A stretch of DNA of 64,000 bases, from the NCBI GenBank assembly GCA_037446135.1, contig JBBIJD010000001.1:27156-91155 (forward strand), read 5' to 3'. This stretch comes from Candidatus Fraserbacteria bacterium (lineage in GTDB: Bacteria > Bipolaricaulota > Bipolaricaulia > RBG-16-55-9 > JANLFV01). The number at the start of each line of letters is the position of its first letter. Position 1 is the stretch's first letter. Shown here in pieces: positions 14,946-28,371 of the stretch. A program made the translations under genes and the position numbers. The notes below the pieces were generated by a model that made no database searches, was not told where the DNA came from, and saw nothing but the letters and a program-made list of their open reading frames with translations.

Positions 14946-15503
14946 ATGGAGATCAATCTGCCGAACCAGCTTACCCTGCTCCGGATCGCCATCATCCCCA
15001 TCTTGATGGTCTTCATCCTCATTCCTCCGGCCTGGGGGAAGATCGTGGCGATCTTCATCTTCGCCATCGCGGCCCTCTCCGATGCCGTCGACGGCTACAT
15101 CGCCCGGAACTGGCGCCAGGTGACGGACTTCGGGAAGTTCGCCGACCCCATCGCGGACAAGCTCTTGATCGCCTCCGCCTTAATCTGCTTCCTCCAGCTC
15201 GGGGAGTTCGGGAGCTGGGGGGCGGCGATCGTCATGACGATCCTCGCCCGGGAGTTCCTCGTCACCGGGTTGAGGATCTTGGCCGTCTCCCAAGACTTAG
15301 TGATCCGGGCCTCCACCTTGGGGAAGCTCAAGACCCTCGCCCAGATCGGGCTGGTCTTCGTCATTTTAGGGAAGAGCTACTTCGACTGGGGCGAGGCCGG
15401 AGAGATCGCAAAAGCGCTGTTTATCGGGCTGGCGCTTTTCTTGGCCCTCGTCTCTGGGGCCGACTATTTCTATCGCAGCCGGAGGCTCTTCCGTCGGCTC
15501 TAG
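14946..15503 (+). CDS. pgsA: CDP-diacylglycerol--glycerol-3-phosphate 3-phosphatidyltransferase
   Basis: Start at MEINLPNQLTLLRIAI. CDP-alcohol phosphotransferase motif DAVDGYIARNW...G...DPIADK. The N-terminal extension in the ORF track is low-complexity and antisense to the asparaginase gene. Confidence 0.9.
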   Translation: MEINLPNQLTLLRIAIIPILMVFILIPPAWGKIVAIFIFAIAALSDAVDGYIARNWRQVTDFGKFADPIADKLLIASALICFLQLGEFGSWGAAIVMTILAREFLVTGLRILAVSQDLVIRASTLGKLKTLAQIGLVFVILGKSYFDWGEAGEIAKALFIGLALFLALVSGADYFYRSRRLFRRL

Positions 15504-18280
15504 CCCCGGACGGAAATGGTCCTAGTCGCTGAGCTGGTATAGCCATCGTTATCGGTGACAGTCAGTGTCACGGGGTAGTCCCCGGCCTTGGGGAAGACCC
15601 ACTTGACGACCTTCCCCTCGGCGTCGGTGGCCTTATCTCCGGTGAAGTCCCATTCATACCTCACGATGTAGCCATCGGGATCGAATGAGGGCGAGCCGTC
15701 GAAGGTCACCTCCTCTCCGGCCTTCGGCTCCGCTGGGGCATAGGTGAAGTCCGCAAAGGGTGGCTGGAAGGTGACGACGATCGGGCGGGGCCGCTCGGCC
15801 GCCCCGAACTCCACTCGGAGGACCTCCCCAGGCTGGAGGAAAAGCTCGAGCCTCGTCGGGGTCGTCGGCTCATAGCGGGCCGGGAGGGTCGCAGGATCGA
15901 GGGAGAGGGAATACCTCCCGGGCAAGAGGGCGGTGAAGACGAACTCGCCCTGCGAGTCAGTGTAGGTGTCCACCAACTCGGCATCGCTCAGGATCAGTCT
16001 TACCCTCGGAAGGCCGGGCTCGCCTTCCTCTCGCCGGCCGTCCCGATTGAGGTCCTTGAAGACCACTCCCAAGATCGCCGCGGCCCTCGCTAGAGGGATG
16101 TCGAGCTTGAGGACCTCTCCCGCCTCCAGTTCGAGCTCGATCGGGAGGGCCACGGCCGGGGCCAGCTCAGCCGGGACCCGGCGGATCGTGAGGAGATACC
16201 TTCCGGGCCAGAGCGGCGGGAAGCGGTAGAACCCGGTCTTCTCCCCGTCGGAGCGGACTGTCACTTCACCGATCTGGAGGAAGACTCCGCTCACACCCGG
16301 CTCGCCGGGATCACGGGCCGAATTGCCGTCCTCATCGATGAAGATGTAGCCCTCGACCCGGGCCTTAGTGAGGATGAACGGGAGGGGGAGGTTGAACCTC
16401 AGGAGGCCTTCCAGGGCCACTCCTAGCTCCGCGGCCCCACTTACTATCGGGAGCGAGGCCCTCGTCTCGATCGCCCCTTCCCAGGCCTGGGACTCGACCG
16501 CCAGCCAGAGGGCGAGCTCGAGTCCCTCCTCGCTCCAGGCCCCGCGCAAGGCCGCGGCCAGGGCCCCCACCCGCAAGGTGAGCCCCGTCTCCAAGCCGAA
16601 GGAGGTGTCAGTGACCATCCCAGAGATGAGGTCATCGGTGAGAGCCTCGCTGAGCCGGAGGGAGAGGAGGGCCCCTCCCCCCGGCCTCAGGCTGAGCAGT
16701 TGCTCATACTGGGAGTATTGATAATCCGTCCCGGTGACGCGATCGCTCTCCCTGGTAGTGCTGGCAGTGAAAGCCAGTGTCGCCTGGCCGATGGGCTGGC
16801 TGAGGCTGGAATAGGCCGTCCTTTCCACCCGATTGACCTCGGGGGAGAGGCCCTCGCTGAACTGCTCCTCGAATTCGGCCCGGAGGCGGAGCGTGGGGAG
16901 CTCCCGCCCGAATGTATGGTAGCCGCTGAAGGAGCTGCGGATGGTGGTGATCCCCGAGACCGTCGGCCTCTGACTCAGGTTCTCCTCGCTTAAGCCAAGT
17001 GAGAGGGTGAGCAAAGGGAGGCTCGGGGAAGAGGTCCGGTAGGCCAGCTCACCGCTGACCCGATCCCCGAGGGTCGGGCCGCGGAGGGCCAGACCGAGCC
17101 GGAGGAGCGAGTCGCCGAAGTAGAACCCCAGGTGGCTGCTGAGAGCCCCGTCAATCCCCTCGGCTGTGCCACTTGCCTCCGCGGTGAGGGTGAGATCCAG
17201 GGCCCCGGCCTGGGCGATGGTGAGCCGGAGGTCATGCCGCTCCGGCGGGCCGGGATAATCCAGAAGATCGAGCTCGAGCCGCTTCAGTCCTGCCTCCGGA
17301 AGGCCGAGGTAGTTGAGCCGCAAGCTGTCGGCGGCCCGCTCGAGGAAGAAGGAGTCCCTAGCGGTGCCCCAGCCGAACAGGAGCCCCGGCTCGAGCCCCG
17401 CGAAGAGGTCGGCGAGATGGAGTTCGAGCCGGAGGGAGCTCTCTTTGCTGATCCGCCCACCGGCGAAGAGGTCGAGTGAGAGGGCCCGCTCTTCAGTGAG
17501 CAGGGGGCTCTCGAGCCGGAACTCGAGCGTCGCCGGTAGCTCGGCGTAGAGTGCCCCGCCGACCGCTTGGGGCGGTGGCGGGAGGAGGCTGATCCAGGCC
17601 GTGGCCTCGGCCTTCACCTCCGGCTTAGTGAGTGAGCTGGCCTTGAGTGTGACCCTGAGCCTCCCTATCGTGGCGGTCGGGAGGACCGTGGCGAGGACCC
17701 CGGCCCTCCGGGCCTCCCCGGGGAGGAGGTCGAGCTGGCCCTCCTCCAGCTCGGCGACGATCTCCGGTGAGCTGGTGACCTCCAGCTTGAAGGAGTCGGG
17801 GAGATTCCCGCGGTTGAGGACCACAAACTCCAGTCGGACCCGCGTGCCGGGATCGGCCTGGACCTCCGGCGGAGGGAAGACCTCGACCGCTGCTTGAGGG
17901 AGGACGATGATGATCGCAGTCGCAGAGGCAGTGATCGAGGGACTGCTCTCGGCTGTGGCCTTAAGCTGGAGGAGGTTCTCGCCCGCCTCGGCCTGAGCGG
18001 TCACGAAGACGGTGATGAAGAGTGCTTGCTCCTCATCGGTTTCCAGCTCGACCGCCGTGGGCGGGGAGACGGGCTCAAGCCCAGGAGAGGGGGAAAGCTC
18101 GAGGAGGAAGCGGTCCGCCGCGCCGCGGTTCCGGATGGAGAAGACATGGGTGACGAATTCCCCTGGTAGGGCCTGCTTCGGCGGGGAGACAGCTTCGAGC
18201 TCCACCTGGGCGAACGCGGCCGCCTGATAGAGCAGGAATAGTGATAAGATGAGGATCAGCCGGCGCATCGCGGGTCGCAC
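15500..18280 (-). CDS. Large secreted/cell-surface multi-domain protein: DUF11/CARDB-like N-terminal repeats, central beta-rich region, two Cna-B/SdrD-B-type Ig-like domains and C-terminal PKD domain
   Basis: 926 aa. Signal peptide MRRLILILSLFLLYQAAAFAQ. C-terminal PKD signature (VTFDGSPSFDPDGYIVRYEWDFGD...YPVTLTVTDNDG). Two carboxypeptidase-regulatory/SdrD-B-like repeats (YIFIDEDGNSARDPGEPGVSGV...; VFKDLNRDGRREEGEPGLPRVRL...). Middle ~350 aa has alternating hydrophobic periodicity compatible with a beta-barrel or beta-sandwich array. Confidence 0.75.
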   Translation of the reverse strand: MRPAMRRLILILSLFLLYQAAAFAQVELEAVSPPKQALPGEFVTHVFSIRNRGAADRFLLELSPSPGLEPVSPPTAVELETDEEQALFITVFVTAQAEAGENLLQLKATAESSPSITASATAIIIVLPQAAVEVFPPPEVQADPGTRVRLEFVVLNRGNLPDSFKLEVTSSPEIVAELEEGQLDLLPGEARRAGVLATVLPTATIGRLRVTLKASSLTKPEVKAEATAWISLLPPPPQAVGGALYAELPATLEFRLESPLLTEERALSLDLFAGGRISKESSLRLELHLADLFAGLEPGLLFGWGTARDSFFLERAADSLRLNYLGLPEAGLKRLELDLLDYPGPPERHDLRLTIAQAGALDLTLTAEASGTAEGIDGALSSHLGFYFGDSLLRLGLALRGPTLGDRVSGELAYRTSSPSLPLLTLSLGLSEENLSQRPTVSGITTIRSSFSGYHTFGRELPTLRLRAEFEEQFSEGLSPEVNRVERTAYSSLSQPIGQATLAFTASTTRESDRVTGTDYQYSQYEQLLSLRPGGGALLSLRLSEALTDDLISGMVTDTSFGLETGLTLRVGALAAALRGAWSEEGLELALWLAVESQAWEGAIETRASLPIVSGAAELGVALEGLLRFNLPLPFILTKARVEGYIFIDEDGNSARDPGEPGVSGVFLQIGEVTVRSDGEKTGFYRFPPLWPGRYLLTIRRVPAELAPAVALPIELELEAGEVLKLDIPLARAAAILGVVFKDLNRDGRREEGEPGLPRVRLILSDAELVDTYTDSQGEFVFTALLPGRYSLSLDPATLPARYEPTTPTRLELFLQPGEVLRVEFGAAERPRPIVVTFQPPFADFTYAPAEPKAGEEVTFDGSPSFDPDGYIVRYEWDFTGDKATDAEGKVVKWVFPKAGDYPVTLTVTDNDGYTSSATRTISVRG

Positions 18281-18357: not shown

Positions 18358-19371
18358 CTAGCCCCGGGACAGGAGTCCCCGGAGGAGGGCCACATCCTCG
18401 CCGTCGGCATCCCCGTCGTTATCGAAATCGAAGGCCGGCCAATTGTTCTGGACCCCAGCGGTGGTGAGGTTCGCCTCCAGGAGGTCCGGGTCAGCGGCGG
18501 TAAAGGCCCCATCGCCGTCCACATCCTCGTAGAAGCCGTCCCCATCGAGGTCCTGTGGCGGATTCGCCGCTCCTCCGATCGGGATGAGCTTGAGCTCAGG
18601 GACATCGAAAATGAGCTGCCCCGCGGGGAGATAATCGGGACTCCCGAAGTCGAGGACCGCCAGGGCATAGTATCGGCCCGGTGCGGGGCGAGGTGAGGAG
18701 CCCCGAGCTCGGGCCTCCCGGACCGCCCCGGGGAGGATCGGGAACTGGGCCACCTCGATCCGCTCCACTAGTTCGCCCCGAGCATCTAGGACTTGGACCT
18801 CCCCGCTCACCCGGAGGTGGATATCCCCGGTGTTCTCGAAGCCGATGAGGAAAGTGAGCGGGTTGAGCCCGAGCCGCTGGACCCCGGTGATCCGGCCGGC
18901 TCTCGTGCCGGTCCAAGGTGGGGTCTCATAGACCTTGATCCCGAACCGGGGGACCACCATTACCGTCGTCCCGCCCCGCTCTTGCGGCCGGGGCCGCCCC
19001 TCGACCATGATCATCCCCCAATAGGTCCCCTGGACATCGGGCGGGACAGTGATGGTGAACCGGACCTCGCGGGCCTCATCGGGCTTAAGGGAGAAGCTCG
19101 TGGGGGTCACGGTGATCCAGGCGGTATTCGAGCGAGGGAGGCTCCCCGGCTCATAGAAGCGGTGATTCCCCTCGACATCCCGGTCCCAGTCGACGAGGTA
19201 GACCTTGATGTCGTCGGTGATCTGTTCATCGTTGTGGACGAGGAAGGAGAAGGTCCCGCTCCCACCGGCCGGGACCTGGAGGTCGAACTCGATCTGGGAG
19301 ACCTCCAGGGCTGAGGAGGTCAGGAGCACCGCCGCAAGGGTCAAGAGGAGAATAAAGCTCTTCCTCAGCAT
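18358..19371 (-). CDS. Secreted protein with an N-terminal Ig-like domain resembling pilus-chaperone (PapD-like)/DUF916-type domains and a C-terminal dockerin-like Ca-binding repeat pair
   Basis: 337 aa. Signal peptide MLRKSFILLLTLAAVLLTSSA. LEVSQIEFDLQVPAGGSGTFSFLVHNDEQITDDIKVYLVDW parallels the chaperone pattern (RIxY...KSVSLTVxN...PYLVQSW). The C-terminus has two dockerin-type repeats: DLDGDGFYEDVDGDG...DPDLLEANL and DFDNDGDADGEDVALLRGLL. Confidence 0.6.
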   Translation of the reverse strand: MLRKSFILLLTLAAVLLTSSALEVSQIEFDLQVPAGGSGTFSFLVHNDEQITDDIKVYLVDWDRDVEGNHRFYEPGSLPRSNTAWITVTPTSFSLKPDEAREVRFTITVPPDVQGTYWGMIMVEGRPRPQERGGTTVMVVPRFGIKVYETPPWTGTRAGRITGVQRLGLNPLTFLIGFENTGDIHLRVSGEVQVLDARGELVERIEVAQFPILPGAVREARARGSSPRPAPGRYYALAVLDFGSPDYLPAGQLIFDVPELKLIPIGGAANPPQDLDGDGFYEDVDGDGAFTAADPDLLEANLTTAGVQNNWPAFDFDNDGDADGEDVALLRGLLSRG

Positions 19372-19436: not shown

Positions 19437-19958
19437 CTAGGCGCTCGTCAGGGTGTAGACGATCTGGAGGGTATAGCTCCCCGGTGGGTCCTCTTCCCAG
19501 GCGAGGAGGACCCTGAAATGGGTATTCACGAGGATATTATTCCCTCTATTCCCCGCGGCCACCTGGACTTCGTTGATGGTCATCCCGGTATAGTCGGGCT
19601 GGGTCGCGGTCACTCGCGGGTCGGTGGAGGAGGACTTCCACTCCAGATCTTCACAGGGCTTATTCGGGTCCGGCCAAGTCCCAGTGTAAGTCCAAGTCGG
19701 GGCTGTGGCCCAGACATTGACCTGCCAGTTGACATTGCTCCTGACTTTGAGCGTCTGGGCGGGAGAGATCTCCTTATAGCCCCTCTCGTAGTCGTCTGCC
19801 GTCAGGTCCCCGAAGTCGACGAGATTGGGGTCCACCGTCAAGCGGAGAGCCGCTAGCGCGGTCGCTTGAACAGTCGTATTTTGGCTTGTCTGGGCCAAGC
19901 CCGCAAGGCCGAGGAGCAGAACCAAACCTGCTGCCAGAAGCCATCTCAATCTTGCCAT
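19437..19958 (-). CDS. Small secreted beta-rich protein, paralog A of a three-member family (pilin/SCPU-like or WxL-like C-terminal strand)
   Basis: 173 aa. Signal peptide MARLRWLLAAGLVLLLGLAGLAQT. Thr/Ser/Asn-rich. C-terminus PGSYTLQIVYTLTSA matches paralogs B (PGDYSITLEYTATSL) and C (PGDYHVTLTYTITTD). Confidence 0.8.
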   Translation of the reverse strand: MARLRWLLAAGLVLLLGLAGLAQTSQNTTVQATALAALRLTVDPNLVDFGDLTADDYERGYKEISPAQTLKVRSNVNWQVNVWATAPTWTYTGTWPDPNKPCEDLEWKSSSTDPRVTATQPDYTGMTINEVQVAAGNRGNNILVNTHFRVLLAWEEDPPGSYTLQIVYTLTSA

Positions 19959-19984
19959 TCTAGCCTCCTAAATGTGAATCTTTG

Positions 19985-20060
19985 GTGGCTTCGGCAGCCT
20001 GGCAGTCCGTGGAGGACCCACGGCTTTGCGCCCCCATGTCGCCATGGGTTCGCCTTTTCG
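19985..20060 (-). promoter_or_regulatory. GEMM-like (c-di-GMP-I class) riboswitch motif in the 5' UTR of paralog A
   Basis: RNA sense: AAGGCGAACCC-[CCCAUG GCGA CAUGGG]-GGCGCAAAGCC-[CCGUGG guccu CCACGG]...GGCUGCCGAAGCC. Shows the GEMM hallmarks GGCAAACC and GGRCGCAAAGCY around a P1 hairpin with a GNRA tetraloop, then P2. The same architecture occurs twice upstream of paralog C with compensatory changes in the P1 stem. Confidence 0.7.
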
Positions 20061-20075
20061 GTCCACTTAAACAAT

Positions 20076-20110
20076 ATTATACAAAGGCTGAGCCGAAGGT
20101 CGTCTGTAAT
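20076..20110 (-). promoter_or_regulatory. Candidate promoter (-10 TATAAT on minus strand) driving the riboswitch-paralog A transcript
   Basis: Minus-strand TATAAT (plus 20076-20081 ATTATA) lies immediately upstream of the riboswitch. The -35 is weak. Confidence 0.4.
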
Positions 20111-20137
20111 GTGGATCACATTCCCCGGCCGGGGGCT

Positions 20138-20190
20138 TGACACCCATAAAATAAAGAGAGGCCCCGGGCTCGAGTCATGAGCCCGGGGCC
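20138..20190 (-). terminator. Rho-independent terminator after paralog B (perfect 10-bp GC stem plus T-tract on the minus strand)
   Basis: GGCCCCGGGC...GCCCGGGGCC stem at 20160-20190. On the minus strand it is followed by CTCTCTTTATTTTATGGG. Sits 20 nt after the stop of 20212..20754. Confidence 0.75.
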
Positions 20191-20211
20191 CCGAAATGAG
20201 CGACTAACCGG

Positions 20212-20754
20212 TTACAGAGAGGTTGCGGTGTATTCCAGGGTGATGCTGTAATCTCCGGGGATGTCCTGTTCGTCCGAGGTATACTTGTAGGCCATATGGA
20301 AGTAGGCCGCGCCCGGCTTCTCCCCGGTCCCGGCCTTCATCATCTGATTGAATCCCGGGAAGCTGACATAGCTCCCCTGGTAGCCGCTGACATTCCCCTC
20401 GACTTTGGCGACCTTCCAGGCGAAGTCAGCGAGGATGTCCCCTTCAAAGCCCGGAGGGGTGGTAGCCTCGACGGCCTGGACGGCCAGGACATAGCCGTTA
20501 TGGCAGTTGGTCCTGAGGGAGACGATGTTCCCTTCGGTGTCCTCTAGGATCTGATCCGGCCCGGTGATCGTCCCCAGGAAGACATCCTGGTGGACATTGA
20601 GGGTGATCCAACAGTTGGCATTCCAGTAGACCGTGGTCTTCCCGCCGTCCCCGGCCCCGAGGGAGATCGTCCCCCAGAGGGCCGCGATCGCTAATGCCGC
20701 GAGGGTCGCTACCTTCAGGGTCTTTCCTATTCTCTTCATCGGTGTTACCTCCAT
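20212..20754 (-). CDS. Small secreted beta-rich protein, paralog B
   Basis: 180 aa. Signal peptide (MKRIGKTLKVATLAALAIAALWG). C-terminal PGDYSITLEYTATSL. No riboswitch upstream; instead an 11-bp-periodic TGGAAr repeat array. Confidence 0.8.
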   Translation of the reverse strand: MEVTPMKRIGKTLKVATLAALAIAALWGTISLGAGDGGKTTVYWNANCWITLNVHQDVFLGTITGPDQILEDTEGNIVSLRTNCHNGYVLAVQAVEATTPPGFEGDILADFAWKVAKVEGNVSGYQGSYVSFPGFNQMMKAGTGEKPGAAYFHMAYKYTSDEQDIPGDYSITLEYTATSL

Positions 20755-20825
20755 CTTCTCTTCCTAGGTCAGGTTTCTGACCTTTCGTCTCGCCTCGGAG
20801 TTTAAGTCACCCCCGCTGGAGGGTC

Positions 20826-20878
20826 GATGGAAGCGGGCTGAAAAGTCGGAGGAAAGCGGCTGGAAATTCCATGGAAAT
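20826..20878. promoter_or_regulatory. Array of five direct repeats (T/A)G(G/A)AA(A/G) at exact 11-bp spacing; candidate OmpR-family response-regulator binding site upstream of paralog B
   Basis: GATGGAAG cgg GCTGAAAAG tcg GAGGAAAG cgg CTGGAAAT tcc ATGGAAAT. Repeat cores start at 20828, 20839, 20850, 20861 and 20872. A related 4-repeat array lies at 22182-22220. Confidence 0.55.
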
Positions 20879-20895
20879 CCCAGAGACTGGAGCTA

Positions 20896-22158
20896 TTAGG
20901 GCTTCTTAGCAGGGAGGGCCCTGGCCCCTCCGAGCCGCTTTGCCCGGTAGAGGGCCCGGTCGGCCTGCTCGATCAGCTCGTCCGGCGAGGCCCCGTCCTC
21001 GGGGAAGCCGGCCACTCCGGCGCTGAAGCTGGCCCTGAAGGGCTCGGATTGCTCAGGGGCTTGGAACCGCTGCTCATGGAACTCCCCTTGGAGCCTGGTC
21101 AGGGCCGCCACGGCCCGGGGCTTGATGGTCTCGGGGAGGATGAGGGCGAACTCATCCCCGCCGTAGCGGGCGGGTAGGTCGCTCTTCCGTCCCTTGGACT
21201 TGATGAGCTCGGCCAGGGCCTTCAGGACGGAGTCGCCCATCCGATGGCCATAGCGGTCGTTGATCGCCTTGAACCGGTCGAGGTCGAGGAGGGCCAGGGA
21301 GAAGACCCTTCCATACCTTCTGCTCCGCTCGAGGGTGCAGCGGAGCTTCTCCTGGAAGGCCCGGTGGTTGTAGAGCCCGGTCAGGCCATCGAGGTCCGCC
21401 AGCTCGGTGAGCACCCGGTTCCGCTCGAGCCGGGCGGCGATCCGGGCGATCAGCTCCTCAGGGTAGAACGGCTTAGTGATGTAGTCGTCCGCCCCGGCCT
21501 CCAGGCCCCGGACCTTGGTCGCCACATCGCCCCTCCCGGTGAGGAAGAAGATCGGGAGCTTCTGGAACTCCACCTCCCGGCGGAGGGAGGCGCAGAGCTC
21601 CAGTCCGGTCAGCTTCGGCATCTCGATGTCCAGGAGCAAGAGGTCCGGCTTGAACTCCCTCAGGGTTGAGAGCGCCTCCGTCGGGTCTTGCAAGGCCTTG
21701 GTGGCGAACCCCGCTTGGCGGAGATGCCCCCCGACGAGCTCCAAGAGGTGAGGATCATCATCGACGATCGCGATCCTCAAGCGGTCGCCTCCTCCCTTTG
21801 GCTCTTGCTCAAGCTCGAACTTGAGCCCAAGCGCCGCTTCGGCCCGCTGGAGCTCCTCCTCCAGCTCGCGAAGGAGGGCCCGGAGCCTTCCCAGTTCCGG
21901 GGCGGCCAGCGGCCTGTTCTGAAGCTGGAGGGCCTCTTCCATCTCCTGAGCCAGCTCGGAGAGCCGAGGGTAGCCGTAGGAGCCGCCGCTCCCCTTGAGC
22001 CGATGGGCCCGCTCCAAGAGGGCCGCCATGGGGGCTTCAGCCTGAGGATCGGCCTCGAGGTCATTGAGCAACTGTCCGAAGAGGTTGAGGGCCCCGCGGA
22101 CCTCCTCGAGGTAGAGCCTTCGCAAGCCCTCCAATCCTTCTTCCATAGGTTCCACCAT
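20896..22158 (-). CDS. Hpt-REC-GGDEF signalling protein (diguanylate cyclase with receiver and N-terminal histidine phosphotransfer domain)
   Basis: 420 aa. Hpt HxxKG motif (ERAHRLKGSGGSYG). REC (IAIVDDDP...LLLDIEMP...DDYITKPF). GGDEF with intact active site RYGGDEF and a putative I-site (RRYGRV...). Confidence 0.9.
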   Translation of the reverse strand: MVEPMEEGLEGLRRLYLEEVRGALNLFGQLLNDLEADPQAEAPMAALLERAHRLKGSGGSYGYPRLSELAQEMEEALQLQNRPLAAPELGRLRALLRELEEELQRAEAALGLKFELEQEPKGGGDRLRIAIVDDDPHLLELVGGHLRQAGFATKALQDPTEALSTLREFKPDLLLLDIEMPKLTGLELCASLRREVEFQKLPIFFLTGRGDVATKVRGLEAGADDYITKPFYPEELIARIAARLERNRVLTELADLDGLTGLYNHRAFQEKLRCTLERSRRYGRVFSLALLDLDRFKAINDRYGHRMGDSVLKALAELIKSKGRKSDLPARYGGDEFALILPETIKPRAVAALTRLQGEFHEQRFQAPEQSEPFRASFSAGVAGFPEDGASPDELIEQADRALYRAKRLGGARALPAKKP

Positions 22159-22181
22159 TGGGAAGGATAAGGCCCTCAGGC

Positions 22182-22220
22182 TGGAATATCGATGGAAGTG
22201 GGCTGGAAATCTGATGGAAG
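22182..22220. promoter_or_regulatory. Four TGGAA(T/G/A) direct repeats at 11-bp spacing upstream of the Hpt-REC-GGDEF gene
   Basis: cTGGAAT atc gATGGAAG tgg gcTGGAAAT ctg ATGGAAG. TGGAA cores at 22182, 22193, 22204 and 22215, located 25-65 nt upstream of the GGDEF start codon and just after the RR stop. Confidence 0.5.
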
Positions 22221-22227
22221 CGGGGGG

Positions 22228-22905
22228 CTACCCCGCCAACTTATACCCGAACCCGCGGACGGTGAGGATCAGTTCGGGGTTCTGCGGGTCCCGCTCGATC
22301 CGCTTGCGGAGGAGGTAAATGTATTTTTGCACATCGCCGGGGCGGGCGAAGCTGCTCCCCGGCCAGAGATGGTCGATGATCTCCCGATCGGAGAAGACCC
22401 TCCCCCGCTCTGAAGCTAAGAGGAGCAGGAGCTCATACTCCTTGGGGGAGAGGCTCACCACCTCTCCTCGGACCTGGACGGTCTTGCTCTTATCGTCGAT
22501 GGTGAGCGGCCCGACCTCAATGAGCGCCTCTTTCGGGGCCGCCCCGGCCCGCCGGAGGACCGCCTCGATCCGGAGGGCCACCTCCATGAGGTCGAACGGC
22601 TTCCTGATATAGTCGTCGGCCCCGAGGGTGAACCCCTGGATCGTATCTATCGGCGAGTCCCGGGCGGTGAGCATCAGCACTGGGGTGGAGCTGCCTTCCC
22701 GGATCCGCCGGAGCACCTCCCAGCCATCCATCCCCGGGAGCATCACATCGAGGAGGACCAGGTCCGGCCGCTCCTTAGCGAAGGCCTCCAGGGCCTTTGG
22801 GCCGTCCTCGGCGGTGAGGACCTCATACCCGCGGGAGCTGAGGAAGGCTCGGAGGAGCCTCAAGATATCAGGGTCGTCATCGACGAGGAGGATCTTCTTA
22901 GCCAT
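22228..22905 (-). CDS. OmpR-family response regulator (REC + winged-helix)
   Basis: 225 aa. KILLVDDDP...LVLLDVMLPGMDGW...DDYIRKPF, plus trans_reg_C (LSPKEYELLLLLASERGRVFSDREIIDHLW...TVRGFGYKLA). About 60% identity by eye to the second RR at 39014. Confidence 0.95.
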   Translation of the reverse strand: MAKKILLVDDDPDILRLLRAFLSSRGYEVLTAEDGPKALEAFAKERPDLVLLDVMLPGMDGWEVLRRIREGSSTPVLMLTARDSPIDTIQGFTLGADDYIRKPFDLMEVALRIEAVLRRAGAAPKEALIEVGPLTIDDKSKTVQVRGEVVSLSPKEYELLLLLASERGRVFSDREIIDHLWPGSSFARPGDVQKYIYLLRKRIERDPQNPELILTVRGFGYKLAG

Positions 22906-25075
22906 CCTGATCAGTCAGTCCTCCGTCCAGCCCGAGCTTGAGCCAGCTCTTGGAGAGCGGGAGCCTGACGGTGAACTTCGTCCCCGCATTCGGCTTGCTC
23001 TCGACCCTGATCTCCCCGCCGTGACGGTCGATCGTGGCCTTGACGATCGCCAGCCCCAGGCCGGTCCCCGTGGCCTCCCGGACATAGGGGTTGGTGGAGC
23101 GGAAGAACCTGGTGAAGAGCCGGCCGAGCTCCTCCGCGTCCATCCCGATCCCGGTATCCGTGACCTCGACGATCGCCTCCCCGGCCACGGTGTCGGCCCG
23201 GGCCCGGAGGCTCACCTTCCCCTCCTTGGTGTATTTGATGGCATTGGAGAGGAGGTTGGCGAAGGCCCGAGCGAGGTAGTCGGCATCACCTTTGACCTGG
23301 AGCCCTTCCTCCAGCTCGACCTCCAGGGCCAATCCCTTCTCCCGGGCATTGACGGCGAAAGTGGCGGCCACATCCCTCAAGATTTCGTCGAGCGCGAGGT
23401 CCCTTAGCTCGATCTTCCGCTCCCCCGACTCGAGCCGCTCGATGTCCAGGAGGTCGTTGACCAGTTTGGTCAGGCGGTCGGCGTTCCGGGAGATAACCTG
23501 GAGGAACTCCTCCTGGGCCGGATTGAGGGGGCCGGTCTCCCCGGCCAAGAGGAGGTCGGCATACCCTTTGATCGAGGTGAGCGGGGTCCGAAGCTCATGG
23601 GAGACGGTGGCGAGGAACTCGGCCTTCAGTTGCTCCAGTCGCTTCTGAGCGGTGATATCCCGCATCATCCCTTGATAGCCCACCAGCCGCCCCGCGCTGT
23701 CCTTGATGGCCACACTGATCTCGTGGACCGTCCTCATTGAGCCGTCCTTGTGCTTATACGCTAGTTCCATGTCTACATAGCCGTCCCGCGCCAGTCGCCG
23801 GTGGAACTCCTCCCGCTGGGCCGGGTCGGCATAATTCTCGCAGAGGTCCATCCGGATCAGCTCCTCTTCCCTGTAGCCGAGAAGCTTCCTCACCGCCGGG
23901 TTGACATCGACGAGTCGGCCTTGAGAATCGCAGACATAGATCACATCGGCGCTATTCTCGAAGAGGTTGCGGTAGCGCTCCCCTGAGCGGCGGAGTTCCT
24001 CCTCAGCTTGCTCGCGTCTAGCAAGCATCTCATTGATCGAGCGAGCCAGGCTCGCCAGCTCATCGCCCCCTTTGGAGGGGAGGCGGGCCGAGAGGTCGCC
24101 GCTCGCCGTGACCCGGCGGACAGCCCGCTCGAGTCGGGCCAGCTTAGCCAGGACACCCCTCTCGAGCAGGAGGAGGGCGGTGGCCGTGAAGACCAGGCCG
24201 ATGGTAGAGAGGGCCAACATGAAGTAGTTCAAGCTCGCCAGCCCTTGGCTGTAGATGGTCCGCGGGAGGTCCACCCTCAAGATGAGGGCCGGCTGGCCGT
24301 AGATATCTCGGAGCAGGGCATAGCCGGCGACCCGCTCCCGGTCGAGCCGCTGGACAGGGAGCGTCGTCGCCCCTGTCCCCGCTAAGAGGGCCGTGCGGGC
24401 CGCGGCGAAGGCCGGGTCTTCTAGGGCTAGTCCTGGCTCATCAACTCGCCGGAATGCTAGTGAGAGGTCCGTCAACTCCGCCAGTTGAGCGACCTTAGCA
24501 GCATCGAGGTAGCGGCCCATGATGAGCGAGCCCCGGCTCGGGCCGGTCTTCTCGCTGGTGAGGATCGGCCTGGCGGCCAAGAGGAGTGGCCCCTCCGCTA
24601 GAAGGAGGAGCCCAGTCAGCCCCTCTTTGGGAGGCTCCTCGCGGGGCCGGAGGAGCGGGCTCTCAGGGGTGAGACTGTTCAAGAGGCCCTCTGGGACTGG
24701 CACCTCCCTTCTCTCCTGGAGGTCGAAGGCCTTGGCGAAGACGATCCTCCCCGAGGAGTGGACGAAGACCATCAAGTTCAAGCCGAGCTCGCTGAAGGTC
24801 TGATCGACGAGGTTGGAGCGGATATACTCCGGATTGGCGTCCTCGATGAAGGCATAGGTATCGTCCCAACCGGCCCAATCGCCGACGAGGGCGCTCAGCT
24901 TGGCCTGGTCATCGGCTAGCGCGTTCAGGGTTCGCTCGACCTCCCTTCGGGTGGCCTGCTCTTCCAGGGCCAGGAAGCCCCCGAGGAAGAGCGACCGGAG
25001 GACGAGATACATGATGGCTACTGAGCAGAGGAGCACTGAGCCGATAGTGATCAGCGTCTTCTTCCGTAGGGTCAT
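22898..25075 (-). CDS. Sensor histidine kinase with extracytoplasmic sensor domain, HAMP, PAS, HisKA and HATPase_c
   Basis: 725 aa. N-terminal TM segment, ~270-aa periplasmic region, a second TM, HAMP-like linker, PAS (DVIYVCDSQGRLVDVNPAV), H-box (ATVSHELRTPLTSI), and N/G boxes (LSNAIKYT, DTGIGM, GTGLGLAIV). Confidence 0.9.
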   Translation of the reverse strand: MTLRKKTLITIGSVLLCSVAIMYLVLRSLFLGGFLALEEQATRREVERTLNALADDQAKLSALVGDWAGWDDTYAFIEDANPEYIRSNLVDQTFSELGLNLMVFVHSSGRIVFAKAFDLQERREVPVPEGLLNSLTPESPLLRPREEPPKEGLTGLLLLAEGPLLLAARPILTSEKTGPSRGSLIMGRYLDAAKVAQLAELTDLSLAFRRVDEPGLALEDPAFAAARTALLAGTGATTLPVQRLDRERVAGYALLRDIYGQPALILRVDLPRTIYSQGLASLNYFMLALSTIGLVFTATALLLLERGVLAKLARLERAVRRVTASGDLSARLPSKGGDELASLARSINEMLARREQAEEELRRSGERYRNLFENSADVIYVCDSQGRLVDVNPAVRKLLGYREEELIRMDLCENYADPAQREEFHRRLARDGYVDMELAYKHKDGSMRTVHEISVAIKDSAGRLVGYQGMMRDITAQKRLEQLKAEFLATVSHELRTPLTSIKGYADLLLAGETGPLNPAQEEFLQVISRNADRLTKLVNDLLDIERLESGERKIELRDLALDEILRDVAATFAVNAREKGLALEVELEEGLQVKGDADYLARAFANLLSNAIKYTKEGKVSLRARADTVAGEAIVEVTDTGIGMDAEELGRLFTRFFRSTNPYVREATGTGLGLAIVKATIDRHGGEIRVESKPNAGTKFTVRLPLSKSWLKLGLDGGLTDQDG

Positions 25076-25187
25076 CTATCTGCTTCTGGCCTCTCGGCCT
25101 GTATCGAGAAGGAATAATAAACCAATAAAGCCGGCCATTCAAGGCCGGCTATCCAACTCTGCTCTTACTCCTGGGCAAGCAGGGCTC

Positions 25188-25709
25188 TCAATCGGTGGTG
25201 ATGGTGTAGGTCAGGGTCACATGGTAGTCTCCCGGCCTATGATGCTCGCGGTCGAAGAGGATGAGGTAGTCCACCTCCACCTTTTGGCGCCCGCTCGGGC
25301 CATGAGCGATGACCTGATCGGAGTTGCTGACCGGGCGATAGGACTCGCTCCCCACGCGGAGCTGGAAGTCGCTGAGCGGCTTGGTGTAGCGGCCGTCATA
25401 GCTCCTTCCGAGGTCGGGCTCGGCGGCCCGGACCGCCAGCCTCCAGTGGACATTGCTGGCGGCGATGAGGGTGAGCGCCCTAGGGATCTCGCGGTAGCCC
25501 CGCTCCAGGTCCGCTTCGCTCGGCTGAGGGAGCACAAATGTCGTCGTGACGGCCTGGTCGGTCTGGCCCTCGAGTGAGAGGCGGGCGAAAGGGAGGACAG
25601 TCCAAGAGATCGTCGTCCTAGCGGAGTCACCTGTCCCTAGAGCCTGGGCACTGAGGAATAACGAGAGACCGAGAAGAAGCAAGCCGGAGATGACCGCTCT
25701 TCTTGCCAT
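25188..25709 (-). CDS. Small secreted beta-rich protein, paralog C
   Basis: 173 aa. Signal peptide MARRAVISGLLLLGLSLFLSAQA. C-terminal PGDYHVTLTYTITTD. Preceded by tandem GEMM-like riboswitch motifs. Confidence 0.8.
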   Translation of the reverse strand: MARRAVISGLLLLGLSLFLSAQALGTGDSARTTISWTVLPFARLSLEGQTDQAVTTTFVLPQPSEADLERGYREIPRALTLIAASNVHWRLAVRAAEPDLGRSYDGRYTKPLSDFQLRVGSESYRPVSNSDQVIAHGPSGRQKVEVDYLILFDREHHRPGDYHVTLTYTITTD

Positions 25710-25710
25710 C

Positions 25711-25790
25711 CTTCGGCAGCCCGGCGATCCCCGAGGGACCCGTAGCTTTGCGCCCCCACCTTGCGATGGGTTTGCCCTTATCGGGATGCG
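25711..25790 (-). promoter_or_regulatory. GEMM-like (c-di-GMP-I class) riboswitch motif, gene-proximal copy of a tandem pair
   Basis: RNA sense: AAGGGCAAACCC-[AUC GCAA GGU]-GGGGGCGCAAAGCUACGGG...GGGCUGCCGAAGG-AUG. The P1 stem CCCAUC/GGUGGG differs from the other copies (CCCGCC/GGCGGG and CCCAUG/CAUGGG) by compensatory changes, and all three loops are GNRA-type (GCAA, GAGA, GCGA). Confidence 0.7.
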
Positions 25791-25801: not shown

Positions 25802-25905
25802 CCCTTCGGCAGCCCGGCTGCCCTTCACCTCCTTCCCCAATCAGCCAGTGTTAGGGCCCGTGGCTTTGCGCCCCCGCCTCTCGGCGGGTTTGCCCTTATC
25901 GGAGC
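25802..25905 (-). promoter_or_regulatory. GEMM-like (c-di-GMP-I class) riboswitch motif, distal copy of the tandem pair
   Basis: RNA sense: CCGAUAAGGGCAAACCC-[GCC GAGA GGC]-GGGGGCGCAAAGCCACGGGCCC...GGGCAGCCGGGCUGCCGAAGGG. Lies immediately downstream of the promoter at 25916-25945. Confidence 0.7.
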
Positions 25906-25915
25906 TCAGCGAAGG

Positions 25916-25945
25916 TATTATACACCGAGTGAGCGGGCTTGACAA
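25916..25945 (-). promoter_or_regulatory. Near-consensus sigma70 promoter (minus strand TTGTCA-17 nt-TATAAT) for the tandem riboswitch-paralog C transcript
   Basis: Minus-strand reading: ggcTTGTCAagcccgctcactcggtgTATAATacc. Overlaps the 3' end of the HD-GYP gene. Confidence 0.6.
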
Positions 25946-27471
25946 GCCCCTTCGGGCGGGGAAGGTCCTTTCGGGCTCAGATCCAGATTGTATCCCCTCT
26001 CGAAGAGCCGGAGGCAGGCCTCGCCAGCTTGGGGGTCGTAGAGCCGCCCCTTGTGCTTGGCGATCTCTCCCAAGGCCTCCTCGATGGCATGGGCCGGGCG
26101 GTAGGGCCGGTGAGAGGCCACCGCCTCCACCACATCGGCCACCGCTAGAATTCGGGCCTCGAGCATGATCTCTTCCCCCTTGAGCCCCCGGGGGTAGCCC
26201 GAGCCGTCGAGCCGCTCGTGGTGCTGGAGGACGATCTCAGCCACCGGCCAGGGGAAGTCGATCTGCCTCAAGACCTCATAGCCGGCCTGGGGATGGACCC
26301 GCACCAGCCCCAACTCGGCCGGATTGAGCCTCCCCGGCTTGCTCAGGATCTCCGCGGGGATATAGATCTTCCCGATGTCGTGGACCTGAGCGGCCATCCT
26401 GAGCCCGGCGATCCGGTCCTGAGGGAGGCCCATCTCCTGGGCGATCGCGCAGGCCAGCTCCGCCACCCGCCGCTGGTGCCCCGCGGTGTAGGGGTCCCGG
26501 ACCTCGACGGTGGTGGCGAGGACATCGACCATCTGCTCCAGGAGCCGCTCCAGCCGCTCATGACTCTCCCGGAGGGCCTCAAACAGCCGGAGGTTCTCCA
26601 AGGCCACAGCGGTGGCATTGGCCAAAGCCTCGAGGAGCTGGCAGTCCTCGGAGGTGAAGGCATTCAACTCCTGGCTCTCGGCGTTGAGGGCCCCGAGGAC
26701 CCGCTCCCCCGCCTTCAAGGGGACGCAGAGCTCAGAGCGGTTGGCGAACCGCCCCCCGACGAACCGTGGGTCCTTGGTCACATCCGGGAGGAGGATCATC
26801 TCCCCAGAGCGGGCCACGGCGGGGATGATCCCCCGCTCGCTAGCGAGGGGGAACTCCTCCGGGCCGGGGGGCCGTCCAAGAGTGTGGGCGACACAGATGA
26901 GCCGCTCGGCCTTCTCGTCCACTAGGAAGAGGCCGCAGTCCTCGAGCCCGAGGACCTCCCGGGCCGCCTCCACCGCCGCTTGGGCGATCTCCTCCTCGCT
27001 CCGGGAGAGGATCAACCTTCGGCCCAGGGCGTAGATCCCGGCCAGGCCCCGCTCGAGCCGCTTCCGCTCGGTGATGTCCCTCAGGATCGTCTGGAGGCCG
27101 ACGACCTTCCCCGCCTGCCTGATCGGGTTGCTCCGGTAGTCCGCGATCCTCGGCCCCTTGGGGGTGGTGAGCTCGATCTCCCCTTGGATCGGCTCCCCTC
27201 GGCTTATCCGGGCGAGCTCCTCGAGCAGCCGGGGATGGTAGCGCTCGGGGACGAACTCGAGCATATTCTTCCCGACCAGGTCCTCCTTGCGGAAGCCATA
27301 TTCTGCAGCGGCCCGGTTCACGGCCGTCACATTCCCTTCAAGGTCGAAGGTGACAATGACATCCCTAGCGTCCTCGAAGAGCTCGCGATAGGCCCCTTCC
27401 GCCCGCTCAAGCTCAGCCACCCGCAGCCGGAGCTGCTCGAGCTCTAACCCCTCTCGTGCCTCCGGTCTCAA
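25918..27471 (-). CDS. PAS-GAF-HD-GYP protein (c-di-GMP phosphodiesterase, HD-GYP class)
   Basis: 517 aa. HD motif (VHDIGKI) and HHERLDGSGYP (the GYP signature). N-terminal PAS and GAF regions. Confidence 0.9.
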   Translation of the reverse strand: MRPEAREGLELEQLRLRVAELERAEGAYRELFEDARDVIVTFDLEGNVTAVNRAAAEYGFRKEDLVGKNMLEFVPERYHPRLLEELARISRGEPIQGEIELTTPKGPRIADYRSNPIRQAGKVVGLQTILRDITERKRLERGLAGIYALGRRLILSRSEEEIAQAAVEAAREVLGLEDCGLFLVDEKAERLICVAHTLGRPPGPEEFPLASERGIIPAVARSGEMILLPDVTKDPRFVGGRFANRSELCVPLKAGERVLGALNAESQELNAFTSEDCQLLEALANATAVALENLRLFEALRESHERLERLLEQMVDVLATTVEVRDPYTAGHQRRVAELACAIAQEMGLPQDRIAGLRMAAQVHDIGKIYIPAEILSKPGRLNPAELGLVRVHPQAGYEVLRQIDFPWPVAEIVLQHHERLDGSGYPRGLKGEEIMLEARILAVADVVEAVASHRPYRPAHAIEEALGEIAKHKGRLYDPQAGEACLRLFERGYNLDLSPKGPSPPEGACQARSLGV

Positions 27472-27702: not shown

Positions 27703-28371
27703 TTAAGGGCTGGGACTGGGACAAGGGACGAAGCAGGCCGCCCCGCCGAAGCTCACCATCCCGCCGATCGAGATCTCGAGGGCCGAGAGGGCCCCATTCC
27801 CGTCACAGACGCCGTCGTAAGCCCCGTCCCCGTCGACATCGAGCCAGCAGAGCGAGTTCGGCATCACCTCATACTTCAGCTCGGCGAAGATCGAGAACGG
27901 CCCGGTGGTGACCCGGAAGCCCGCCAGCTCATGGAGAGAGAGGAGCATCCCCGGACCGTAGGGGTTCCCCAGAGCGGTGAATGCCTCATAGGGGAAGGTG
28001 CCGATTCCTCCGCCGAGATAGAATCTTGCCATCCCCCGGTTGAGGAAGAGCAAGAGGCTGCTCTCGACGGAGGTGAGGTCGGCCCGGAGTAGGGCCGCGC
28101 TCAAGTAGAAGGCCACTCCCAGCCTAGCGGCCAGATCGAGGGTCAGCGGAGCCTCGGCGTAGAGGTGGATGAAAGTGAGGGCCGTAGTGAGCGTGAGTGG
28201 CGGCATGGTGATCAGCGGGAGAGAGAGGGCCAGCCCGAAGGCCGGAGAGGGGGCCGACGGGGGGGTCGCGGGCTGAGTCTGGGCCAACCCCACAAGGCTG
28301 CCGACCAGTAAAAGGACCAGCACCAGGAGCGCAGTTAAAGCCAGCTTCATCTTCTTGAACCTCCCTTCCAA
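27703..28371 (-). CDS. Secreted hypothetical protein with Ca-binding DxDxDG-type motif
   Basis: 222 aa in the track. The true start may be the internal Met of MKLALTALLVLVLLLVGSLVGLAQT (signal peptide). DVDGDGAYDGVCDGNG near the C-terminus is a thrombospondin-3/dockerin-like calcium loop. Confidence 0.5.
   Translation of the reverse strand: MEGRFKKMKLALTALLVLVLLLVGSLVGLAQTQPATPPSAPSPAFGLALSLPLITMPPLTLTTALTFIHLYAEAPLTLDLAARLGVAFYLSAALLRADLTSVESSLLLFLNRGMARFYLGGGIGTFPYEAFTALGNPYGPGMLLSLHELAGFRVTTGPFSIFAELKYEVMPNSLCWLDVDGDGAYDGVCDGNGALSALEISIGGMVSFGGAACFVPCPSPSP

What the first reader, a model, noticed from the sequence alone, without database searches (positions are those of the whole stretch)
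19437..25709. Three-member family of small secreted beta-rich proteins with a shared pilin-like C-terminal strand
19437..19958, 20212..20754 and 25188..25709 each encode ~150-aa mature, Thr/Ser/Asn-rich proteins with cleavable signal peptides and nearly identical C-termini (PGSYTLQIVYTLTSA, PGDYSITLEYTATSL, PGDYHVTLTYTITTD). A G-x-Y-x-x-T-L-x-Y-T-x-T terminal beta-strand recalls the donor-strand/terminal-strand signatures of SCPU/Csu-type pilins and the WxL surface-protein C-terminus (W replaced by Y). Two of them sit behind c-di-GMP-type riboswitch motifs and the third behind a candidate response-regulator site, so they look like differentially regulated subunits of one surface structure. I cannot assign them to a named family from sequence alone.
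Basis: partly seen in the sequence, partly recalled or inferred. Interest (0 to 1): 0.8.

Follow-up and report, generated by a model that had tools for sequence, protein, structure and literature searches.

The report
Riboswitch-controlled pilus subunits, TLP-1 type
The three small secreted proteins are most likely subunits of a surface fibre of the same type as the orphan "TLP-1" fibrils imaged from pond water; this locus supplies candidate assembly genes and a c-di-GMP control circuit, none of it tested experimentally.

The parts
25918..27471 (-). PAS-GAF-HD-GYP protein, a predicted c-di-GMP phosphodiesterase, immediately upstream of the pilin C promoter
   Evidence: Pfam HD_5 3.5e-42, GAF 4.7e-21, PAS_4 4.4e-18. 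The HHERLDGSGYP motif is visible in the translation. The gene is absent from the sister genome L069.
25917..25945 (-). Sigma-70-like promoter (TTGTCA-17-TATAAT) for the pilin C transcript
   Evidence: 11 of 12 consensus matches. 6 such sites in the region against 1.0 expected from shuffles. Sequence read.
25804..25903 (-). c-di-GMP-I-GGC riboswitch aptamer, first of a tandem pair
   Evidence: Rfam RF03167, 76.2 bits (gathering 59), E 2.7e-16.
25711..25785 (-). c-di-GMP-I-GGC riboswitch aptamer, second of the pair; its 3' end abuts the pilin C start codon
   Evidence: Rfam RF03167, 74.4 bits, E 8.5e-16. The ATG at 25709 follows 1 nt after the aptamer.
25188..25709 (-). Pilin-like protein C (173 aa), TLP-1-type family member
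   Evidence: ORF. Family HMM E 2e-53. Orthologs 44-92% identical.
25129..25150 (-). Terminator-like hairpin plus T-run after pilin C, making C a monocistronic unit
   Evidence: 8-bp stem with 7 GC pairs and a T-rich tail.
22898..25075 (-). Sensor histidine kinase (CHASE4-HAMP-PAS-HisKA-HATPase)
   Evidence: Pfam CHASE4 5.6e-45, HisKA 2.5e-23, HATPase_c 7.4e-31. Same position in sister genome L069.
22228..22905 (-). OmpR-family response regulator, candidate regulator of pilin B
   Evidence: Pfam Response_reg 9.2e-32, Trans_reg_C 7.4e-21.
20896..22158 (-). Hpt-REC-GGDEF protein, a predicted phosphorylation-controlled diguanylate cyclase
   Evidence: Pfam GGDEF 1.1e-44, Response_reg 2.7e-29, Hpt 5.5e-13.
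20815..20876 (.). Three 18-nt direct repeats at 22-nt spacing in the pilin B leader; candidate response-regulator binding sites, untested
   Evidence: the repeat finder family D1. Retained in sister genomes L069 and L070, which are too close to be informative. No riboswitch here.
20212..20754 (-). Pilin-like protein B (180 aa), TLP-1-type family member
   Evidence: ORF. Family HMM E 6e-39. Orthologs 53-91% identical.
20158..20192 (-). Strong intrinsic terminator after pilin B
   Evidence: 14-bp stem with 12 GC pairs and a T-run. Sequence.
19989..20063 (-). c-di-GMP-I-GGC riboswitch aptamer before pilin A
   Evidence: Rfam RF03167, 61.0 bits (gathering 59), E 6.1e-12. An AGGAGG Shine-Dalgarno lies 6 nt before the ATG.
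19437..19958 (-). Pilin-like protein A (173 aa), the member that was modelled; first gene of the A-337-926 operon
18358..19371 (-). 337-aa secreted protein with two Ig-like domains plus a C-terminal dockerin; a WxLIP (DUF916+DUF3324) homolog and candidate donor-strand chaperone or anchor
   Evidence: hhalign against six Firmicute WxLIPs: probability 97%, E 8.7e-11, 212 columns; HMM E 7e-16 to 1e-4. The only PDB sequence hit for the body is EfmWxLIP1, E 0.003. Dockerin_1 in 20 of 22 members. Syntenic with pilins in about 20 genomes.
15500..18280 (-). 926-aa secreted protein: N-terminal Ig-like domains, an unassigned 400-aa beta-rich middle region, then two SdrD_B domains and a PKD domain; candidate usher-like pore
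   Evidence: Pfam domains. No Pfam or PDB match for residues about 240-640. Always follows the 337-aa homolog. Homologs in TLP-1 clusters at E about 1e-20. The barrel is inferred only; the AF2 single-sequence model failed with pLDDT 35.

Best explanation
A, B and C are alternative or complementary subunits (pilins) of a donor-strand-exchange surface fibre of the type solved as TLP-1. Each is exported by Sec. The mature protein is an incomplete Ig-like sandwich. Its conserved C-terminal strand (GDYxxTLxYTxT) lines an open groove. Its conserved N-terminal extension (TTVxWTA...) is donated into the groove of another subunit to build the polymer. The 337-aa WxLIP homolog encoded next to A is proposed to cap that groove before assembly, as PapD does and as AlphaFold2 predicts for WxLIP with WxL, or to anchor the fibre through its dockerin. 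The 926-aa protein is proposed to be the outer-layer assembly pore: N-terminal Ig domains, a beta-barrel-like middle, C-terminal Ig domains. Expression is tied to c-di-GMP. A (with 337 and 926) and C are each translated from leaders carrying c-di-GMP-I-GGC aptamers. B lies downstream of a CHASE4 kinase, an OmpR regulator and an Hpt-REC-GGDEF cyclase. An HD-GYP phosphodiesterase flanks the locus. Shown here: the fold match, the family, the synteny, the WxLIP homology and the riboswitches. Inferred: polymerisation, the chaperone and usher roles, and the direction of the switch.
Against: There is no experimental evidence of a fibre in this phylum, and an earlier genome study of Acetothermia found no pilus genes (PMC6092417). 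The envelope type of Bipolaricaulota is unsettled (same paper), so an outer-membrane usher may not apply. The middle of the 926-aa protein has no detectable relative, and its single-sequence model was useless (pLDDT 35). The 337-aa protein carries a dockerin, which is unusual for a transient chaperone and fits a stable surface anchor better. Sequence similarity to TLP-1 is weak outside the N-terminal half, and TLP-1 subunits are about 100 residues longer. I could not inspect the model coordinates for an open groove. The ligand of the GGC aptamer variant could not be checked in the held literature.
Confidence: 0.68

Rival explanations
1. WxL-like, non-polymerising cell-wall platform. A, B and C would be the functional equivalents of Firmicute small WxL proteins. 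They would bind the wall non-covalently as monomers or heterodimers, each permanently completed by a strand from the WxLIP-like 337-aa protein, and would display the two-domain proteins. There would be no fibre.
For: The 337-aa protein is a clear WxLIP homolog. The cluster logic matches WxL clusters: small protein, large protein with the same domain at its C-terminus, and WxLIP (PMC10599100). Motifs are collinear: SNxxWxLxV against GWxLxV, and GDYxxTLxYTxT against YxxTLTWxL. The trimmed pilin HMM gives a marginal hit to a B. thuringiensis small WxL protein, E 1e-3 in 7217 ORFs.
Confidence: 0.17
2. Self-assembling biofilm-matrix fibre of the TasA or archaeal bundling-pilus kind. Subunits would polymerise by donor-strand exchange outside the cell without a dedicated chaperone or pore, and the 337-aa and 926-aa proteins would be unrelated surface adhesins that merely co-occur.
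Against: The pilin-337-926 linkage is conserved across Bipolaricaulota, Fraserbacteria and low-GC freshwater contigs carrying TLP-1 relatives, which argues for a functional unit. No TasA/camelysin Pfam match and no SipW-like peptidase were seen. The 337-aa protein belongs to a family predicted by AlphaFold2 to complement a partner's sandwich.
Confidence: 0.1
3. Ordinary secreted Ig-like proteins, such as binding proteins or S-layer accessories, whose resemblance to pilins reflects only the common beta-sandwich fold.
Against: The TLP-1 match is an outlier with 24% identity. It is backed by shared N- and C-terminal sequence motifs and by a shared gene neighbourhood.
Confidence: 0.05

Closest known systems
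TLP-1a/TLP-1b fibrils (PDB 9ikj, 9ikk; CryoSeek, PMC11494351)
   Different: TLP-1 subunits are about 235 aa mature, against about 150 aa here, with large insertions. The sequence relation is weak (hhalign 75%). The TLP-1-type contigs are low-GC (about 0.32), have no dockerin on the chaperone-like protein, and were not scanned for riboswitches; no aptamer was found in the related Emticicia locus. The TLP-1 donor is protomer n+4, and the geometry here is unknown.
Firmicute WxL clusters (small WxL, large WxL, WxLIP = DUF916+DUF3324; PMC10599100; PDB 9i25)
   Same: The 337-aa protein is homologous to WxLIP across both Ig-like domains. The cluster grammar is the same: a small single-domain protein, a large protein with that domain at its C-terminus, and the WxLIP-like partner. 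AlphaFold2 predicts that WxLIP donates a strand to complete the WxL sandwich.
   Different: The small proteins do not match the WxL family by Pfam, HMM or hhalign. The second motif has Y where WxL has W. The partner ends in a dockerin rather than a transmembrane helix. There is an extra conserved 926-aa protein and no LPXTG protein. WxL proteins are described as peptidoglycan-bound, not as fibres.
Classical and archaic chaperone-usher pili (Fim, Pap, Caf1, CFA/I, Csu, CupE/SCPU)
   Different: No Pfam Fimbrial, SCPU or Usher match was found. PapD_N matched only below threshold, in 3 of 22 members scanned. The putative pore has no detectable similarity to ushers. The host phylum lacks LPS genes and has an unsettled envelope.
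c-di-GMP-I (GEMM-I) riboswitch-controlled adhesin and pilus genes
   Same: Aptamers score above the Rfam gathering threshold directly upstream of surface-structure genes, some in tandem. Tandem c-di-GMP riboswitches are a known arrangement (PMC12452182).
   Different: Nearly all are the GGC variant model (RF03167). Every single-domain pilin gene has a private aptamer. One aptamer abuts the start codon with no Shine-Dalgarno spacing.

Membership tests
TLP-1-type donor-strand-exchange pilin (no database family yet) | Fold of the TLP-1 protomer | tested here: met
TLP-1-type donor-strand-exchange pilin (no database family yet) | Cleavable signal peptide followed by a conserved N-terminal strand that serves as donor | tested here: inconclusive
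   The signal peptide and the conserved TTVxW/ATA segment are present. The segment aligns with the TLP-1 N-terminal strand and is unstructured in the monomer model. Actual donation was not modelled.
TLP-1-type donor-strand-exchange pilin (no database family yet) | Gene neighbourhood shared with genes of TLP-1 relatives | tested here: met
   Contigs with 70-76% identical TLP-1 relatives carry 337 homologs (E 1e-20 to 1e-25) and 926 homologs (E about 1e-20).
TLP-1-type donor-strand-exchange pilin (no database family yet) | Polymerises into a fibril | not testable with these tools
   This needs multimer modelling or experiment.
WxL domain (PF13731) | Match to the WxL family profile, including the dual W-x-L motifs | tested here: not met
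   No Pfam hit in 54 members. hhalign probability 2-23%. The WxL HMM's best E against the family is 3.7. The first motif is present as W-x-L/V; the second is Y-T-L.
WxL domain (PF13731) | Structural similarity to the solved WxL chain 9i25_A | tested here: not met
WxLIP (DUF916/PF06030 + DUF3324/PF11797), for the 337-aa neighbour | Homology over both Ig-like domains | tested here: met
   hhalign probability 97%, E 8.7e-11, 212 columns. The HMM hits all six Firmicute WxLIPs. The only PDB hit for the body is EfmWxLIP1. Single-sequence Pfam hits stay below the curated cut-off.
WxLIP (DUF916/PF06030 + DUF3324/PF11797), for the 337-aa neighbour | C-terminal transmembrane helix | tested here: not met
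   The C-terminus is a type I dockerin in 20 of 22 members. The Emticicia homolog (254 aa) has no dockerin, and the TLP-1-cluster homologs scanned (L093, L101) have none either.
Classical chaperone-usher pathway | Fimbrial (PF00419) or SCPU (PF05229) subunit, PapD_N/PapD_C chaperone, Usher (PF00577) | tested here: not met
   The subunits have no hits. PapD_N appears only below threshold, in 3 of 22 337-family members. No Usher hit in 16 members of the 926 family or in PDB profile searches.
TasA / camelysin fibres (PF12389) | Match to the family profile | tested here: not met
c-di-GMP-I riboswitch clan (CL00126) | Covariance-model score above the gathering threshold, correct strand, 5' of a gene | tested here: met
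   Three aptamers at 61-76 bits against a gathering score of 59. The arrangement is conserved in related loci.
c-di-GMP-I riboswitch clan (CL00126) | Binds c-di-GMP (ligand of the GGC variant) | not testable with these tools
   The paper that defines the variant is not in the held library.

The most novel reading that the evidence does not exclude
The locus may exemplify an undescribed, phylogenetically wide pilus-assembly pathway, seen here in Bipolaricaulota, Fraserbacteria, an Emticicia (Bacteroidota) MAG and low-GC freshwater contigs. Its fibre would be the orphan TLP-1 fibril. Its chaperone would be the ancestor or relative of the Firmicute WxL-interacting protein. Its roughly 1000-aa partner would be a new kind of usher with no sequence similarity to classical ushers. 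On this reading the Firmicute WxL clusters are the monoderm, pore-less derivative of a donor-strand-exchange pilus system, and in Bipolaricaulota each subunit is individually gated by a c-di-GMP riboswitch.
Probability: 0.4. Interest if true: 0.85.

Novelty: new variant of a known kind. Interest (0 to 1): 0.78.

Why it matters
First, it gives a genetic home to a solved structure without a known origin. The authors of TLP-1 could not find its gene, organism or assembly machinery (PMC11494351). Here close relatives and their conserved neighbours are identified. Second, it points to a candidate chaperone-usher-like pathway that standard annotation misses completely: no Pfam or NCBIfam family covers the subunit or the putative pore. 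It occurs in a candidate phylum previously reported to lack pilus genes (PMC6092417). Third, the partner protein links this pathway to the Firmicute WxL/WxLIP surface-protein clusters, which are implicated in virulence and whose mechanism is still debated. Fourth, giving each subunit its own c-di-GMP aptamer is a clean natural example of second-messenger control of fibre composition. It also offers many GGC-variant aptamers with an obvious physiological read-out.

Tried and rejected
- Pfam and NCBIfam on the three proteins and on 54 family members found nothing.
- The word-based homolog search found only 4-8 close relatives per paralog. The exhaustive profile search was needed to see the family.
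- The afdb50 fold library was unavailable.
- The single-sequence AF2 model of the 926-aa middle region was useless, with pLDDT 35. The barrel or usher idea therefore rests only on sequence pattern and position.
- A hydrophobic-moment scan of the 926-aa protein did not discriminate between regions.
- PDB profile searches with the 926-family and with the middle region of the homologs from the low-GC contigs and Emticicia gave no hit for the middle region.
- WxL membership of the pilins was tested four ways and rejected on statistics, despite collinear motifs and one marginal hit.
- The Emticicia 210-aa pilin-like protein shows no sequence link to TLP-1 in the PDB.
- The listing of cluster members gave little taxonomy.
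- The paper that defines the GGC aptamer variant could not be read.
- Folding of the leaders gave no clear ON or OFF platform.
- No degenerate riboswitch lies before B.
Full report
**Observation.** The three ORFs are present on the minus strand exactly as described, with the quoted C-termini.
- I call them A (19437-19958, 173 aa), B (20212-20754, 180 aa) and C (25188-25709, 173 aa).
- They are distant paralogs, 23-34% identical with 22 invariant columns.
- Each begins with a Sec-type signal peptide, read from the sequence. Mature sizes are about 147-151 aa. S+T+N content is 20-26%, so 'Thr/Ser/Asn-rich' holds only for A.
- Rfam places c-di-GMP-I-GGC aptamers (RF03167) above gathering score at 25804-25903 and 25711-25785 in front of C, and at 19989-20063 in front of A.
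- B has no aptamer even at E<=10. Its leader holds three 18-nt direct repeats spaced 22 nt apart.
- No other family member lies in the window.

**What the proteins are.**
- Pfam and NCBIfam find nothing for A, B or C, and Pfam finds nothing for 54 diverse relatives.
- Word-based searches return only a handful of orthologs, named as Candidatus Bipolaricaulia hypothetical proteins.
- A 20-sequence profile (A2) read against 1.84 billion representatives finds 1370 clusters at E<=1e-3 and 397 at E<=1e-10. Most are 150-200 aa. Some have the domain at the C-terminus of 300-330-aa proteins, or two to three copies in tandem.
- AlphaFold2 with A2 gives a confident all-beta model for A (pLDDT 87.7, pTM 0.76). 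Residues 1-21 are disordered and residues 22-37 have no secondary structure.
- Foldseek against the PDB ranks TLP-1a and TLP-1b first (E 1.6e-6 and 3.9e-6). Archaeal bundling pili and a long run of chaperone-usher pilins follow.
- TLP-1a/b are 8-nm fibrils reconstructed from filtered pond water. [quoted passage not shown] The authors found no gene, organism or machinery for them (PMC11494351).
- The family profile aligns its first 64 positions with the TLP-1 N-terminus, including the donated strand, at a borderline E of 0.079 against the PDB.

**Neighbourhood.** On the minus strand the order is as follows:
1. HD-GYP phosphodiesterase
2. promoter and two aptamers
3. C, then a terminator
4. CHASE4 histidine kinase
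5. OmpR-type regulator
6. Hpt-REC-GGDEF cyclase
7. B, then a terminator
8. aptamer
9. A
10. a 337-aa secreted protein
11. a 926-aa secreted protein

Promoter-like and terminator-like signals fit three transcription units for the pilins.

With the 337-aa protein as query, 22 full-length homologs were fetched. Nearly all come from Bipolaricaulota/Acetothermia MAGs, one comes from Candidatus Fraserbacteria, and a weaker one comes from an Emticicia MAG. An HMM survey of those loci shows a recurring operon:
- one or two small pilin genes
- a 310-350-aa two-domain protein with the pilin domain at its C-terminus
- the 337 homolog
- sometimes a PKD-dockerin protein
- the 926 homolog

In locus L001 the 337 and 926 homologs are 47% and 40% identical to the window proteins. 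The two-domain protein there has no free N-terminal extension before its pilin domain. That is the architecture of FimH- or PapG-type tip adhesins.

**Link to TLP-1 genes.**
- I used the 64 N-terminal residues of TLP-1b printed to scan metagenome contigs. This returned 31 loci, 49-76% identical, from freshwater samples with GC about 0.32.
- The contigs that extend upstream of the pilin show a 337 homolog (E 1e-20 to 1e-25 over the whole two-domain body). Those that extend downstream show a second pilin-like gene and a 1180-1210-aa homolog of the 926-aa protein (E about 1e-20).
- On each of these contigs the TLP-1-like pilin is also found by the Bipolaricaulota pilin HMM at both its N- and C-terminal ends.
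- A profile of these TLP-1 relatives aligns with the window family at hhalign probability 75%, E 2.6e-5.
- The solved fibril and the window proteins therefore belong to the same kind of gene cluster.
- The Emticicia locus has the same layout with four pilin-like genes, one of which the trimmed pilin HMM detects (E 6e-6).

**The 337-aa protein.**
- Its body, without the dockerin, hits only EfmWxLIP1 in the PDB (E 0.003, both domains in register).
- Against six Firmicute WxLIP proteins fetched from plasmids, its family HMM scores E 7e-16 to 1e-4. hhalign gives probability 97%, E 8.7e-11 over 212 columns. The reverse WxLIP profile finds the Emticicia, TLP-1-cluster, Bipolaricaulota and Fraserbacteria proteins.
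- AlphaFold2 predicts that WxLIP inserts a strand into a gap of the WxL sandwich (PMC10599100). This is the same principle as PapD-type chaperones.
- Unlike WxLIP, the Bipolaricaulota proteins end in a type I dockerin rather than a transmembrane helix (20 of 22 members).

**The 926-aa protein.**
- It has N-terminal Ig-like domains, two SdrD_B-like domains and a PKD domain at the C-terminus. A roughly 400-residue middle region has no Pfam or PDB relative.
- In the homologs from the low-GC contigs and Emticicia, this middle region is rich in N, Y, F and G with alternating hydrophobic positions, as in outer-membrane barrels. This is my reading of the sequence, not a test. A profile of the region finds nothing in the PDB.
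- A single-sequence AlphaFold2 run failed with pLDDT 35.
- The usher-like role is therefore inferred from position, domain order and conservation only.
- The envelope of this phylum is unsettled, possibly a simple diderm (PMC6092417).

**Regulation.**
- In related Bipolaricaulota loci, every single-domain pilin gene (31 of 31, after correcting three envelope artefacts) has its own c-di-GMP-I or c-di-GMP-I-GGC aptamer, several in tandem. None of the 10 two-domain genes has one.
- The Fraserbacteria and Emticicia loci have none.
- In the window the aptamer of A is followed 30 nt later by a canonical AGGAGG-6 nt-ATG.
- The second aptamer of C ends 1 nt before the ATG, and an ortholog shows the same arrangement.
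- Folding suggests that part of the A aptamer can pair with the start region when unliganded. This does not settle ON against OFF.
- The locus also encodes a predicted phosphorylation-controlled cyclase and an HD-GYP phosphodiesterase. The signal, its sensors and its targets are thus side by side.
- A sister genome has the same order but lacks the HD-GYP gene.

**Most likely mechanism.** A, B and C are exported. They are held or anchored by the WxLIP-like protein through strand complementation. They are then polymerised by N-terminal donor-strand exchange into a TLP-1-type fibre at or through the 926-aa protein. Subunit supply is set by c-di-GMP through private riboswitches for A and C, and by a two-component system for B. 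I put 0.68 on the pilin-subunit reading. My confidence is lower in the specific chaperone role and lower still in the usher role.

**Comparison and membership.**
- The proteins work like chaperone-usher pilins, but no defining profile of that pathway is met.
- They are not WxL-domain proteins by any statistical test. The solved WxL chain 9i25_A is not among the top structural matches. Even so, motif order is collinear and one marginal hit exists.
- They meet the tested criteria for the still unnamed TLP-1 type.

**Novelty.** Donor-strand-exchange pili are well known, so this is a new variant rather than a new category. However, the subunit family, the putative pore, the link to WxLIP, the genetic identification of TLP-1-type clusters and the per-subunit riboswitch control are not described in the literature I could search.

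Noticed in passing
window 18358-18570 (C-terminus of the 337-aa protein): The WxLIP-like protein ends in a type I dockerin/EF-hand module (Dockerin_1 in 20 of 22 family members). The dockerin alone matches many haloarchaeal and methanogen genomes (L035-L062). No cohesin partner was looked for. A dockerin on a supposed chaperone is unexplained.
   Followed up: partly
window 25709-25711; L008 4985-4987: The second aptamer before pilin C ends 1 nt before the ATG, so there is no normally spaced Shine-Dalgarno. An ortholog's leader shows the same abutting arrangement. This suggests that the P1 stem itself gates initiation.
   Followed up: partly
window 25918-27471 versus L069 4528-4955: The PAS-GAF-HD-GYP gene upstream of pilin C is missing from an otherwise collinear sister genome, so it is a recent gain or loss of the c-di-GMP-degrading arm.
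   Followed up: partly
L064 1953-3059 (B. thuringiensis plasmid): A Firmicute WxL/WxLIP cluster has an HD-GYP gene immediately upstream, hinting that c-di-GMP control may also apply to WxL clusters. I did not scan it for riboswitches.
   Followed up: no
L013 5994-7517; L014 11041-12207; L015 11086-12477; L020 10974-12266: Some Bipolaricaulota clusters insert an extra 390-510-aa gene between the 337 and 926 homologs. Its product ends in a segment matching the 337-aa protein's dockerin-bearing C-terminus. The L013 copy, the only one scanned, has PKD and dockerin domains.
   Followed up: partly
L017 5083-5157; L013 14648-14790; L015 4101-4190; L024 7719-7793: Seven of 38 c-di-GMP aptamers in the related loci sit in front of genes the pilin HMM did not detect. 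They may mark further divergent subunits or other c-di-GMP targets.
   Followed up: no
L043 3840-11426 (Emticicia MAG): A Bacteroidota locus has the same grammar: two 209/210-aa pilin-like genes, a 254-aa WxLIP-like gene without a dockerin, a 968-aa gene with an outer-membrane-barrel-like middle region, and two more small pilin-like genes. A PAS histidine kinase lies upstream. No riboswitch was found.
   Followed up: partly
window 27703-28371; L069 3845-4528: A 222-aa protein with an N-terminal hydrophobic segment and no family assignment is conserved next to the locus in the sister genome. Its function is unknown.
   Followed up: no
P0020, P0031, P0032: Family members of 450-480 aa contain three tandem copies of the pilin-like domain, possibly pre-linked subunits or self-complemented variants.
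   Followed up: no
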